Shown: in pieces, positions 20,382 to 21,260 of the stretch | Layout of the letters: each line of letters begins with the position of its first letter | Numbering within the stretch: the stretch's first letter is position 1 | The notes under the pieces: model-generated | Seen by the model: the letters and a program-made list of their open reading frames with translations, nothing else | Told to the model about the DNA's origin: nothing | Databases searched by the model: none | Made by a program: the position numbers and the translations under genes | DNA from: an uncultured Christensenellaceae bacterium | GTDB taxonomy: Bacteria > Bacillota > Clostridia > Christensenellales > DTU072 | Direction: 5' to 3' | DNA length: 64,000 nucleotides | Assembly (NCBI GenBank): GCA_964613035.1 | Contig: CAZTFQ010000002.1 | Span: 21,901 to 85,900 of the forward strand

Positions 20382-20420
20382 AAAATCGACAAGTTTCAAT
20401 CCGAGCTTGTCGATTTTACT
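20382..20420 (+). terminator. Terminator hairpin after the tRNA cluster (copy 1 of a duplicated hairpin)
   Basis: AAAATCGACAAG-loop-CTTGTCGATTTT, a 12-bp stem followed by a T run. Confidence 0.6.
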
Positions 20421-20592
20421 TTTTCACTCTTACCTCTTCACTCTTCACTAAAATATCTTGTCGATTTTTCGGAAGTAATAAGTAATAGTGAATAGTGAAA
20501 AGGTACTTATAGCTTCTGAACAAGTTTCTCGTTTTGGGTTGAAAAGCAATCAACTCTTTTATATAATGTTTATATAGAGTGGTGGTAAGATT

Positions 20593-20943
20593 ATGTCCGA
20601 AAGTCCTTTAATTATTAAATCAAAAACGTTTGCACTTGAAGTAATACAAGTTTGTAAAACACTAAGGTTGGCAAAATGCGAAAGCGCTTTGATTAATCAA
20701 TTTTTGCGTTCGGGAACAAGTATCGGCGCCAATATTAGAGAAGCATTTTACGCACACGGAAAGGCTGACTTTATTGCTAAGCTTCAGATTGCTTTAAAAG
20801 AATGCTCGGAAACCGAATATTGGATTGAACTGATTTTAGAGAGCGAATATTATTCGGATAAAGCCTTACTTGAAAAGTGTACGGAAATAAAAAGAATTTT
20901 GATTGCCTCCATTAACACCGCTAAAGAGAAAAACAAAGGATAA
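20593..20943 (+). CDS. Four-helix-bundle protein (TIGR02436, formerly 23S-rRNA-intervening-sequence protein family)
   Basis: 116 aa with the characteristic pattern FAL.VI...K.L......L..Q..RSGTSIGANI.EA, plus A.KL.IALKE..ET.YW..L. Low-GC surroundings. Confidence 0.75.
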   Translation: MSESPLIIKSKTFALEVIQVCKTLRLAKCESALINQFLRSGTSIGANIREAFYAHGKADFIAKLQIALKECSETEYWIELILESEYYSDKALLEKCTEIKRILIASINTAKEKNKG

Positions 20944-20968
20944 AGTATATATTCGTTTCGCATTTTAC

Positions 20969-21008
20969 AAAAATCGACAGGTTTCGATAGAAGCTTGTCG
21001 ATTTTTCT
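20969..21008 (+). terminator. Terminator hairpin (copy 2, near-identical to 20382-20420)
   Basis: AAAATCGACAG-loop-CTTGTCGATTTTT. The same stem sequence and similar T/C-rich downstream flank occur at 20382-20445. Confidence 0.5.
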
Positions 21009-21260
21009 TTTCACCATTACTTCTTCCCTATTTTTACCATATATATTGACTTTTTTTGGAATTTTTTATAAAATAAAGTCGCTACGATCTTAATATCATT
21101 ATTTAAGGCGCTTATTACCTTGGTAACAAGTGCATTATCTGCGTACATAGTCTTAATAATGATATGTGTGATCGTAGCAAATCTAGCGGTAATTCACTTG
21201 TTATATTTTCTGGATATATCGGGTGCATTGCCCGATATGTTTTTTTCAGGAGGTAATAAC

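What the first reader, a model, noticed from the sequence alone, without database searches (positions are those of the whole stretch)
20382..21040. Four-helix-bundle (TIGR02436) gene inserted as a cassette flanked by duplicated hairpin-plus-flank sequences downstream of tRNA-Glu
A near-identical hairpin (AAAATCGACARG…CTTGTCGATTTT) with a similar T/C-rich trailer occurs immediately after tRNA-Glu (20382-20445) and again immediately after the 4HB gene (20969-21040). The sequence in between is AT-rich. This is the signature of insertion with target duplication. 4HB genes of this family are notorious for residing in intervening sequences, which supports their behaving as small mobile cassettes.
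Basis: partly seen in the sequence, partly recalled or inferred. Interest (0 to 1): 0.55.

Follow-up and report, generated by a model that had tools for sequence, protein, structure and literature searches.

The report
tRNA-docked four-helix-bundle gene cassette
The small gene after tRNA-Glu belongs to a widespread, apparently undescribed family of roughly 1-kb cassettes in herbivore-gut Clostridia that sit exactly at the 3' end of many different tRNA genes, each with an ultra-conserved structured leader, a constant four-helix-bundle gene and often a variable passenger gene.

Summary
Hairpin A (20382-20417) and hairpin B (20969-21006) are copies of each other, and a gapped alignment extends the duplication to about 125 nt (20359-20487 vs 20952-21075).

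The reading "insertion with target duplication" is only partly right. Hairpin A is the first part of a ~125-nt leader found upstream of close 4HB homologues in the best 80 of 429 related stretches in a species-representative genome scan. In 61 of those 80 loci the leader abuts the CCA of an intact tRNA (14 anticodons).

The unit has this order:
- a terminator hairpin;
- two inverted arrays of a 7-nt repeat;
- a third arm (a'') complementary to CCA + A-run + hairpin 5' arm;
- its own sigma-70 promoter;
- the 4HB gene;
- often a translationally coupled cargo gene of unrelated families;
- a pseudo-tRNA 3' end ("J").

Evidence that the family moves:
- orthologous tRNA-Met loci without it (L115, L116);
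- perfect tRNA-3'-end direct repeats around units (L003, 28 nt);
- about 980 nt that are 99.5% identical after two different tRNAs (L091, L092).

The window's copy is old (dS saturated, dN/dS ≤ 0.06). Its right-hand repeat is a decayed J plus an older leader or terminator. No integrase is nearby and the mechanism is unresolved.

The parts
19945..19973 (+). Promoter-like site of the tRNA operon (TTGACA-17-TATTAT)
20307..20381 (+). tRNA-Glu(ttc), last gene of a Met-Met-Glu tRNA cluster. Its encoded CCA (20379-20381) is the docking point of the cassette.
   Evidence: In 61 of 80 related loci the leader starts right after a tRNA CCA.
20382..20417 (+). Hairpin 1 (hairpin A). Arm a is 20382-20393, the loop 20394-20405, arm a' plus T-run 20406-20417. 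It is an intrinsic-terminator-type hairpin and the first part of the conserved leader.
   Evidence: The stem sequence differs between loci but always pairs: 17 distinct 7-nt cores, 482 Watson-Crick and 38 G.U pairs in 38 distinct hairpins.
20418..20449 (+). T/C-rich arm of hairpin 2: 7-nt repeats (TTCACTC-type)
   Evidence: Near-invariant across 55 leaders. Pairs with 20473-20503.
20457..20469 (+). Arm a'': a third copy of the hairpin 3' arm plus T-run, in the apical loop of hairpin 2. It is complementary to A-run + arm a, and in most relatives also to the CCA through a following TGG.
   Evidence: The exact reverse complement of the locus's own 7-nt core is found in 29 of 57 leaders, against 10 of 2674 cross-type pairs.
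20473..20503 (+). A/G-rich arm of hairpin 2 (AAGTAATAAGTAATAGTGAATAGTGAAAAGG). This is the most conserved non-coding block and carries stop codons in all three frames.
   Evidence: The reading-frame observation is read directly from the sequence.
20539..20567 (+). The cassette's own sigma-70-type promoter (TTGAAA-17-TATAAT)
   Evidence: The same near-consensus promoter occupies the same place in relatives.
20593..20943 (+). 4HB gene (116 aa; TIGR02436 / PF05635). Closest solved relative is 2RLD.
   Evidence: dN/dS <= 0.06 against relatives.
20944..20968 (+). J: decayed pseudo-tRNA 3' end (AGTATATATTCGTTTCGCATTTTAC) marking the right end of the unit
   Evidence: Aligns to the tRNA-Glu T-loop-to-CCA segment. 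By eye it resembles the J2 class that ends other units.
20969..21006 (+). Hairpin B: a copy of hairpin 1. Probably the terminator of the 4HB gene, and the relic of the previous occupant or original terminator of the tRNA.
21007..21075 (+). Decayed remainder of a second leader: T/C-rich repeats, a relic of a'', and the start of the A/G arm
   Evidence: The family HMM aligns 20968-21031 at only 10.7 bits.

Best explanation
Positions 20382 to about 21075 hold one member, plus the decayed stump of a second, of a family of small integrase-less cassettes that occupy the junction between a tRNA gene's CCA and its terminator in herbivore-gut Oscillospirales.

A unit consists of, in order:
1. An A-run / stem / T-run hairpin that terminates the tRNA transcript.
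2. A long hairpin made of two inverted arrays of a 7-nt repeat. Its sequence, not only its pairing, is conserved. It places stop codons in all frames on both strands.
3. In the tip of that hairpin, a segment (a'') complementary to CCA + A-run + the 5' arm of the first hairpin.
4. Usually a third terminator-like hairpin.
5. A near-consensus sigma-70 promoter and ribosome-binding site.
6. The 4HB gene.
7. In more than half of relatives, a passenger gene whose start overlaps the 4HB stop.
8. A pseudo-tRNA 3' end (J), followed by a plain terminator.

Shown:
- the architecture and its conservation;
- the three-way covariation of the arms;
- the exclusive tRNA-3' location;
- empty orthologous sites in relatives;
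- tRNA-3'-end direct repeats around some units;
- near-identical units after different tRNAs;
- strong purifying selection on both the protein and the leader.

Inferred:
- The unit works as an insulated, self-promoted expression cassette.
- It enters by site-specific recombination between J..CCA|A-run-hairpin on the element and tRNA..CCA|A-run-terminator on the chromosome, or in some cases within the T-loop. The recombinase would be supplied in trans, as for cis-mobilizable elements.
- New arrivals push older units outwards. In the window, hairpin B and its trailer are the decayed older unit or terminator retained as the 4HB terminator.
- The 4HB protein, the only constant protein, plausibly binds the heptad repeats.
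For: Architecture and association:
- 429 related stretches were confirmed in the genome-contig scan; the best 80 were kept.
- 61 of those 80 have an intact same-strand tRNA ending no more than 600 nt upstream, covering 14 anticodons. Most of the rest are truncated contigs or begin with a tRNA remnant or J.
- The A/G motif lies 76-152 nt upstream of nearly every 4HB gene and is rare elsewhere in about 1.3 Mb of flanks.

Conservation:
- 42 invariant and 23 near-invariant columns in 55 leaders, all in the heptad arms.
- Synonymous sites of the adjacent gene are saturated over the same comparisons (dS > 1.2, dN/dS <= 0.06).

Fold:
- Window leader: -41 kcal/mol, z = -7.6.
- The two-hairpin fold is the minimum-energy structure in 57 of 57 leaders.

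Covariation of a, a' and a''.

Mobility:
- L115 and L116 carry the same nucleotidase / tRNA-Leu / tRNA-Met operon with only a plain terminator after tRNA-Met, whereas L098 has the cassette there.
- Direct repeats of the local tRNA 3' end lie 0.7-3.2 kb downstream in 9 loci. Among them are L003 (28 of 28 nt, bracketing exactly leader + 4HB + GNAT), L098 and L042.
- L091 (after tRNA-Leu) and L092 (after tRNA-Gln) share about 980 nt at 99.5% identity. The shared block begins exactly after the CCA and ends in a T-loop-like motif.

Cargo: at least 30 unrelated families in 49 loci.

Right ends: J classes follow the element type, not the local tRNA, and are always followed by an A-run hairpin.

Tandem units: L001, L016, L021, L025, L051, L075, L076.

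Window-specific: the duplication spans 20359-20487 vs 20952-21075.
Against: - No empty site exists for the window's own locus; relatives lack the whole tRNA cluster.
- The window's copy is old, so nothing here shows it ever moved.
- No integrase homologue was found in the 64-kb window, and only 3 of 80 loci have one within 10 kb. That test used a single tblastn query.
- The recombination model cannot yet reconcile two kinds of junction: identity that starts exactly at the CCA (L091/L092), and perfect 28-31-nt tRNA-3' repeats (L003, L098). Other elements also pile up at these tRNAs, as in L023, L027 and L045. Some remnants may therefore not be made by the 4HB units.
- The role of a'' is unexplained. 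The a:a'' helix is never in the minimum-energy RNA fold.
- All relatives are MAGs, so chimeric contigs cannot be fully excluded.
Confidence: 0.65

Rival explanations
1. Local tandem duplication. Unequal crossing-over or replication slippage duplicated the tRNA 3' end + hairpin + leader within this lineage. The 4HB gene is a vertically inherited resident, and nothing was ever inserted.
For: The right-hand copy contains leader parts, not just a short target. Tandem leaders without genes exist in L001, L021, L025 and L076. Hairpins within one array are often identical, as in L051 and L075. The window's copy is old.
Against: The family shows empty orthologous sites, near-identical units after different tRNAs, and J ends that go with the element rather than with the local tRNA. 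The window's nearest relatives sit after Trp, Gln, Tyr and Ser tRNAs, never Glu.
Confidence: 0.15
2. Classical transposition. A transposase-mobilised cassette inserted after tRNA-Glu and duplicated its target (hairpin plus flank).
For: Direct repeats flank the gene. tRNA-3'-end repeats of 15-31 nt flank related units.
Against: There are no terminal inverted repeats and no transposase. Repeat length is variable and far longer than known target-site duplications. Hairpin A and its trailer are element sequence, conserved in every copy irrespective of target.
Confidence: 0.07
3. IVS-like RNA processing unit. The A/G-rich block (20477-20502) pairs with the T/C-rich trailer after hairpin B (21007-21032) to form a stem enclosing the 4HB ORF. 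RNase III would cut it out of a tRNA read-through transcript, as for 23S rRNA intervening sequences.
For: Inverted repeat I2 has 26 nt at 73% complementarity. The family name derives from rRNA intervening sequences.
Against: The A/G block pairs better with the upstream T/C block in the window and in all 57 leaders. Most relatives have no T/C block after the gene. A consensus promoter lies between the stem arm and the ORF. No rRNA is present in the window.
Confidence: 0.05
4. Two independent intrinsic terminators that merely look alike: one for the tRNA operon and one for the 4HB gene.
For: Hairpin A scores as a terminator. Similar stems follow tRNAs without a leader in L034 and L056.
Against: Loops and flanks are also homologous: 86% over 44 nt, and an alignment of about 125 nt scoring 99 against a shuffle maximum of 51. 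The motif occurs nowhere else in 64 kb.
Confidence: 0.03

Closest known systems
Cis-mobilizable elements (CIMEs) and other integrase-less islets at tRNA 3' ends (definition in PMC5704250)
   Same: Located at the 3' end of a tRNA gene. Bounded in several relatives by direct repeats of the tRNA 3' end. No integration or transfer genes inside. Occur in tandem with other elements, for example L051 next to an integrase-bearing element.
   Different: Much smaller (0.6-1.2 kb). They are not obviously decayed ICEs or IMEs but a conserved, selected design: leader, promoter, 4HB, cargo, J. One element type uses at least 14 different tRNA species. Some junctions lie exactly at CCA|A-run, without a cognate tRNA identity block.
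Tycheposons of Prochlorococcus (bioRxiv 10.1101/2020.12.28.424599)
   Same: tRNA-targeted. Partial tRNAs separate successive units. Newer arrivals appear to push older ones outward. The cargo is variable.
   Different: Tycheposons are defined by their own tyrosine (or serine) recombinase and often by replication genes. Neither is present here, and the units are an order of magnitude smaller.
Integron gene cassettes
   Same: Small units with one variable gene (GNATs and small proteins of unknown function are typical). They form tandem arrays. The recombination-site-like element has conserved structure but variable arm sequence.
   Different: No IntI and no attC. Each unit has its own promoter and a constant first gene. 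The docking site is a tRNA 3' end.
23S rRNA intervening sequences encoding PF05635 proteins, and DGR Avd (PMC10053308)
   Same: The protein family is the same (TIGR02436 / PF05635; 2RLD at E = 9e-24). As with the intervening sequences, the gene is lodged in a stable-RNA transcription unit.
   Different: Not inside an rRNA. It has its own promoter. There is no reverse transcriptase or template/variable repeat pair within about 6 kb.

Membership tests
TIGR02436 / PF05635 four-helix-bundle (23S rRNA IVS protein) family | Profile HMM score above the curated cutoff | tested here: met
   TIGR02436 100.7 bits against a cutoff of 24. PF05635 81.9 bits against 33.8. 2RLD at E = 9.3e-24.
23S rRNA intervening sequence | Lies inside a 23S rRNA gene (helix 25 or 45) | tested here: not met
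   Rfam finds only three tRNAs in the 64 kb.
23S rRNA intervening sequence | Flanking inverted repeats form a processing stem that encloses the ORF | tested here: not met
   The A/G arm pairs with the upstream T/C arm in 57 of 57 leaders. A downstream T/C block is present only where a second leader follows.
tRNA-gene integrative element / CIME | Sits at the 3' end of a tRNA gene | tested here: met
   The leader starts at the base after the CCA of tRNA-Glu. The same holds in 61 of 80 relatives.
tRNA-gene integrative element / CIME | attL/attR direct repeats containing the tRNA 3' end | tested here: inconclusive
   In the window there is only a decayed match, 20359-20381 vs 20952-20969, which could equally be an element-borne J. 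In relatives the repeats are clear: L003 28 of 28 nt, plus L098, L042 and others.
tRNA-gene integrative element / CIME | No integrase or transfer genes inside the element | tested here: met
   The only ORF of note is the 4HB gene. No integrase homologue was found in the window.
tRNA-gene integrative element / CIME | Presence/absence at orthologous sites | tested here: inconclusive
   Met for the L098-type locus (L115 and L116 are empty). Not obtainable for the window locus.
tRNA-gene integrative element / CIME | Mobilised by a related integrase acting on its att sites | not testable with these tools
   Needs an experiment or detection of excised forms.
Tycheposon | Own site-specific recombinase and hallmark replication genes | tested here: not met
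Integron cassette | attC site, IntI integrase and a promoterless cassette | tested here: not met
   The unit has its own consensus promoter. No integrase was found. attC was not searched for specifically.
DNA transposon / MITE | Terminal inverted repeats and a short fixed-length target-site duplication | tested here: not met
   The repeats are direct, 15-125 nt long and of variable length.
Diversity-generating retroelement (Avd accessory gene) | Adjacent reverse transcriptase and template/variable repeat pair | tested here: not met
   The genes within about 6 kb are surface or secreted proteins. The only repeats are those described above.
Intrinsic terminator | G+C-containing stem followed by a T-run | tested here: met
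   Hairpin A is flagged. G.U pairs in hairpin 1 across the family fit function as plus-strand RNA.

The most novel reading that the evidence does not exclude
These units are a previously undescribed, integron-like gene-capture system of gut Clostridia. A constant platform (the leader plus the Avd-like 4HB protein) docks at the universal CCA|A-run junction of essentially any tRNA gene without carrying a recombinase. The a'' segment, exposed in the tip of the heptad hairpin, would act as a built-in complement of the docking junction. It could form a folded single-strand att site, as in attC or CTX phage, or serve as a guide. The 4HB protein would be the element's own nucleic-acid-binding mobility or maintenance factor. 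That would also explain why this protein family is lodged in stable-RNA genes elsewhere (the 23S rRNA intervening sequences).
Probability: 0.15. Interest if true: 0.85.

Novelty: new variant of a known kind. Interest (0 to 1): 0.62.

Why it matters
The PF05635 / TIGR02436 proteins are among the commonest uncharacterised small proteins in bacteria. They are known only as residents of 23S rRNA intervening sequences and as the Avd accessory protein of diversity-generating retroelements.

Here a tight clade of them turns out to be the constant gene of a tRNA-docked cassette, with three notable features:
- an extremely conserved structured leader, absent from Rfam;
- a hypervariable passenger gene (acetyltransferases, a deaminase, ATPases, membrane peptides);
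- evidence of movement between tRNAs and genomes without an integrase of its own.

This offers a concrete, testable system for three questions. What do 4HB proteins bind? How do small cargo genes circulate in gut Firmicutes? How can an element target the 3' flank of many tRNAs without damaging them?

It also matters for annotation, because these units fragment metagenome assemblies at tRNA loci.

Tried and rejected
1. Exact look-up of the window's 4HB protein and of its 100%-identical cluster representative found no contig on record.
2. Empty-site search through the window's upstream 301-aa gene found relatives at 77% and about 54% identity. They keep the upstream operon but lack the tRNA cluster, so they are uninformative.
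3. The single metagenome-contig scan, with the L098 flanking nucleotidase, returned only 41-50% relatives that are not syntenic.
4. Rfam at the gathering threshold and at E <= 5 gave no family for the leader, only chance microRNA-like hairpin hits.
5. PADLOC and PHROGs gave no hit for the 4HB protein or for two passenger proteins.
6. RNA-switch idea (a:a' versus a:a''). The a:a'' helix is never in the minimum-energy fold, and blocking a' costs about 19 kcal/mol on average. An equilibrium switch is therefore not supported.
7. The idea that a'' is a strictly Watson-Crick (DNA-level) complement while a' is an RNA-level arm has only weak support: G.U is 3.2% against 7.3%, and a:a'' also contains mismatches.
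8. An apparent many-copy hairpin core in L041 turned out to be a coding repeat.
9. Phage and plasmid collections hold no cassette. IMG/VR holds only the A/G heptad motif, in intercistronic positions and without a tRNA or 4HB gene.
10. The family leader HMM detects the window's right-hand copy only weakly (10.7 bits). The case for its homology rests on the pairwise alignment.
11. A literature search found nothing describing tRNA-linked 4HB cassettes in the held library.
12. The count of structure pairs was not used. MAFFT cannot keep the arms in register across hairpin types whose A-runs differ in length, so covariation was tested with anchored scripts instead.
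Full report
**1. What is in the window**

ARAGORN and Rfam agree on three tRNA genes on the + strand: tRNA-Met at 19990-20065, tRNA-Met at 20211-20287 and tRNA-Glu(ttc) at 20307-20381. A promoter-like site lies at 19945-19973.

Directly after the CCA of tRNA-Glu comes hairpin A. It reads AAAATCGACAAG / 12-nt loop / CTTGTCGATTTT at 20382-20417. The pattern scan flags it as an intrinsic terminator.

ORF 20593-20943 (116 aa) is a clear TIGR02436 / PF05635 four-helix-bundle protein. 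Its closest solved relative is 2RLD.

Twenty-six bases after its stop codon, hairpin B (20969-21006) repeats hairpin A. The direct repeat is 44 nt at 86% identity. The half-site occurs five times in the 64 kb, all here, against 0.74 expected. GC falls to 0.30-0.37 across the segment.

**2.

Between hairpin A and the gene lies more structure:
- a T/C-rich run of 7-nt repeats (20418-20449);
- a third copy of the hairpin's 3' arm (a'', 20457-20469);
- an A/G-rich run (20473-20503) that is the inverted partner of the T/C run.

As RNA, this 134-nt stretch folds into two hairpins at -41 kcal/mol, with z = -7.6 against shuffles. A near-consensus promoter, TTGAAA-17-TATAAT at 20539-20567, precedes the ribosome-binding site.

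A gapped alignment shows that the duplication is much longer than the hairpin. It spans 20359-20487 vs 20952-21075, with score 99 against shuffles of 32 +/- 5.5 and a maximum of 51. The right-hand copy begins with a decayed version of the tRNA T-loop-to-CCA segment. It then runs through hairpin B, a decayed T/C run, a relic of a'' and the start of the A/G run.

**3. The same module elsewhere**

Thousands of proteins 83-92% identical to this 4HB exist in metagenomes, many of them on very short contigs. The genome-contig scan confirmed 429 related stretches. The best 80 loci (L013-L092) are MAGs of ruminant and other herbivore-gut Clostridia: Acutalibacteraceae, Oscillospiraceae and "Eubacteriales".

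In 61 of these 80 loci an intact, same-strand tRNA ends no more than 600 nt upstream of the gene. The tRNA differs between loci:

| tRNA | loci |
|---|---|
| Met | 27 |
| Trp | 11 |
| Gln | 8 |
| Arg | 4 |
| Ser | 4 |
| Leu | 3 |
| Tyr | 2 |
| Pro | 1 |
| Val | 1 |

This gives 14 anticodons. None is Glu, the tRNA found in the window. Most of the remaining 19 loci are cut by a contig end or begin with a tRNA fragment.

In every case the sequence between the CCA and the ATG is the same leader: hairpin 1, T/C heptads, a'', A/G heptads, usually a third terminator-like hairpin, the promoter and the ribosome-binding site.

- The A/G motif lies 76-152 nt upstream of almost every 4HB gene and is rare elsewhere in the roughly 1.3 Mb of flanks.
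- Rfam has no family for the leader.

**4. Conservation pattern**

In an alignment of 55 leaders, 42 columns are invariant and 23 nearly so. All of them lie in the heptad arms and the T-runs. The arms of hairpin 1 and a'' are hypervariable.

Hairpin 1 comes in 17 distinct 7-nt cores. In each leader, a' and a'' match that leader's own arm a. The exact reverse complement of the own core is present in the a'' zone of 29 of 57 leaders, against 10 of 2674 pairings between leaders of different type. With the TGG that usually follows it, a'' complements CCA + A-run + arm a over up to 20 positions.

Hairpin 1 contains G.U pairs (38 of 520), which fits function as plus-strand RNA, that is, as a terminator.

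The a:a'' helix is never part of the minimum-energy fold. The two-hairpin fold wins in 57 of 57 leaders, with a mean of -43.7 against -25.0 kcal/mol when a' is blocked. An equilibrium RNA switch is therefore not supported, and the role of a'' remains unexplained.

The window's 4HB has dN of about 0.05-0.07 against relatives, with saturated dS (above 1.2, or not computable), giving dN/dS <= 0.06. Two conclusions follow:
- The protein is under strong purifying selection.
- The heptad arms, nearly invariant over the same distances, are themselves functional at the sequence level.

The same result means that the window's copy is old.

Read directly from the sequence, the A/G arm carries TAA, TAG and TGA in all three frames. 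The complement of the consensus T/C arm carries TGA in all three frames. Together with two or three terminator-like hairpins, this makes the leader look like a two-way insulator in front of a self-promoted gene. That function is inferred, not shown.

**5. A constant gene and a variable passenger**

In 49 of 85 gene copies a second ORF starts at or within a few bases of the 4HB stop, typically with an ATGA overlap. These ORFs fall into about 30 unrelated groups. Pfam recognises three different GNAT acetyltransferase groups, a cytidine-deaminase-fold protein, an AAA_18 kinase-like protein, an ASCH protein and an AAA_15/AAA_21 ATPase. The rest are small proteins of unknown function and membrane peptides.

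The window's unit has no passenger gene.

**6. Right ends**

Immediately after the last gene, every unit ends with a "J". This is a pseudo-tRNA 3' end: a T-arm-like GGGTTCAAGTCC or GGAGTTCGAAT, often a roughly 30-nt insert, then an acceptor-like tail ending in CCA or CAC. It is followed by an A-run and a plain hairpin.

J classes go with the element type, not with the local tRNA. The window's 20944-20968 (AGTATATATTCGTTTCGCATTTTAC) resembles the short J2 class (my reading).

Tandem arrangements occur in several forms:
- leader-leader-4HB in L001, L021, L025 and L076;
- leader-4HB-J-leader in L075 and L016;
- a four-unit array next to a tyrosine recombinase gene in L051.

The window has the L075 layout, in a decayed state.

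**7. Evidence of mobility**

(a) Empty sites. L098 and about 20 other contigs of one species carry nucleotidase(-) / tRNA-Leu / tRNA-Met / leader-4HB-ORF144. In L115 and L116 the nucleotidase is 81% and 76% identical and the tRNA operon is the same. There, tRNA-Met is followed only by a plain terminator.

(b) att-like repeats. In 9 loci (among them L003, L027, L042, L052, L076 and L098) a 15-31-nt copy of the local tRNA's 3' end lies 0.7-3.2 kb downstream, after the cassette and directly before a plain terminator. In L003 a perfect 28-nt repeat brackets exactly leader + 4HB + GNAT, 1051 nt apart.

(c) Recent transfer. L091 (after tRNA-Leu(gag), an Oscillospiraceae MAG) and L092 (after tRNA-Gln(ctg), an Acutalibacteraceae MAG) share about 980 nt at 99.5% identity, and their 4HB coding sequences are 100% identical. 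The shared block begins at the first base after the CCA and ends in the T-loop-like motif of J.

(d) Other elements also pile up at these tRNAs (L023, L045, L051), as described for tRNA islands elsewhere.

**8. Mechanism**

The data fit a site-specific exchange between an element junction, J..CCA|A-run-hairpin-leader, and a chromosomal tRNA..CCA|A-run-terminator.
- tRNAs without a leader in these MAGs do have an A-run hairpin directly after the CCA.
- The plain hairpin after J in L015 is almost the same sequence as the tRNA-Met terminator of the empty L115.

Some junctions instead show classical identity blocks running from the T-loop to the CCA (L003, L098).

No integrase homologue was found in the window, and only 3 of 80 loci have one within 10 kb, on the basis of one tblastn query. 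A recombinase acting in trans, as for cis-mobilizable elements, is therefore an inference.

Homologous replacement between resident and incoming units cannot be excluded.

**9. Reading of the window**

tRNA-Glu is followed by one complete unit without a passenger gene (20382-20968). After it comes the stump of an older unit, or the previous terminator, at 20969 to about 21075. Hairpin B is well preserved, presumably because it terminates the 4HB gene.

"Target duplication" is not the best description, because hairpin A and its trailer are element sequence. No empty site is available for this locus.

**10. Comparison with known systems**

The protein is a member of TIGR02436 / PF05635, the family that includes the 23S rRNA IVS proteins and resembles DGR Avd. 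This is neither an intervening sequence nor a DGR.

As a mobile-element type, the closest known kinds are CIMEs at tRNA 3' ends and the partial-tRNA-separated arrays of tycheposons. These units differ from both in several ways:
- they lack any recombinase;
- they are about 1 kb long;
- they share a selected leader-plus-4HB platform;
- they use many different tRNAs.

In cargo size and variability they recall integron cassettes, but they lack attC and IntI and carry their own promoter. I found no description of them in Rfam, PADLOC, PHROGs or the held literature.

**11. Verdict**

- Observation: confirmed.
- Interpretation: partly supported.
- Novelty: a new variant of a known kind, an integrase-less tRNA-3' islet.

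Two features are unexplained and interesting: the ultra-conserved heptad hairpin, and the a'' arm that covaries with the docking junction.

Noticed in passing
window 20066-20195: Between the first tRNA-Met and the second there are two tandem 63-nt units (51-nt copies at 20067-20117 and 20130-20180, 98% identical). Each is followed by a copy of the tRNA's last bases: a decayed GTCCGCAGCA, then a perfect CCCCGCAACCAAA at 20183-20195 matching 20055-20067. This is a second, miniature case of insertion at a tRNA CCA end with duplication of the 3' end. The unit contains GGAATTGAAAC, which resembles the end of a CRISPR repeat. It was found nowhere else in the window or in the fetched loci.
   Followed up: partly
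window 21046-21260: Upstream of the next gene lie a promoter-like site (21046-21074), a long imperfect hairpin (21074-21185) and a strong terminator-like hairpin with a T-run (about 21214-21246) only about 14 nt before the start codon at 21261. This could be an attenuator or riboswitch-like leader. There is no Rfam match.
   Followed up: no
window 21261-23753: The gene after the cassette encodes an 830-aa secreted protein with a thiol-activated cytolysin domain (PF01289, E = 5e-33) and a long Gly/Asn-rich repeat tail (GNGGNGG...). This is unusual for a gut commensal MAG.
   Followed up: no
L121 136, 4298, 5507, 5967; L123 450, 4297, 5514 (IMG/VR contigs): The A/G heptad motif alone (AGTAATAGTGAATAGTGAA...) recurs three to four times in G+C-rich predicted phage contigs. 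Each copy lies right after a stop codon and shortly before the next gene, with no tRNA, T/C partner or 4HB gene nearby. It may be a general intercistronic signal, such as an all-frame stop or a translation signal, in this host group.
   Followed up: partly
L116, about 60-130 nt downstream of tRNA-Met (minus strand of locus, about 4480-4560): The empty site carries an inverted pseudo-tRNA-Met fragment just after the plain terminator. Further on there is a J2-like sequence (GCATCTTTTTCTGCATCTTATCAC). This suggests earlier integration or excision events at this site.
   Followed up: no
L091 10790-10990: After the unit's J there is a divergent solo leader with a different heptad (TTCATTA / TAATGAA). 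It has the same plan, including its own hairpin and a matching a''-like segment. The leader design therefore exists in more than one sequence family.
   Followed up: no
L030 about 9700-9790: Here the leader follows only the 3' half of a tRNA-Met, from the anticodon loop (CTCATAA...) to the CCA. This suggests that a different class of element, with crossover in the anticodon loop, has also integrated at this tRNA.
   Followed up: no
L026 9770-9840: The T/C arm is expanded to about nine TCTTCAC repeats while the A/G arm is not. The heptad array is therefore prone to slippage.
   Followed up: no
L051 8415-11600: A phage-type tyrosine recombinase gene (PF00589) ends 45 nt before a tRNA-Trp 3' remnant. 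That remnant heads a four-unit array: solo leader, leader-4HB-ORF139, leader with an 82-aa membrane ORF, and a truncated leader. All four hairpins share the same unusual loop (CGCGTGAG).
   Followed up: partly
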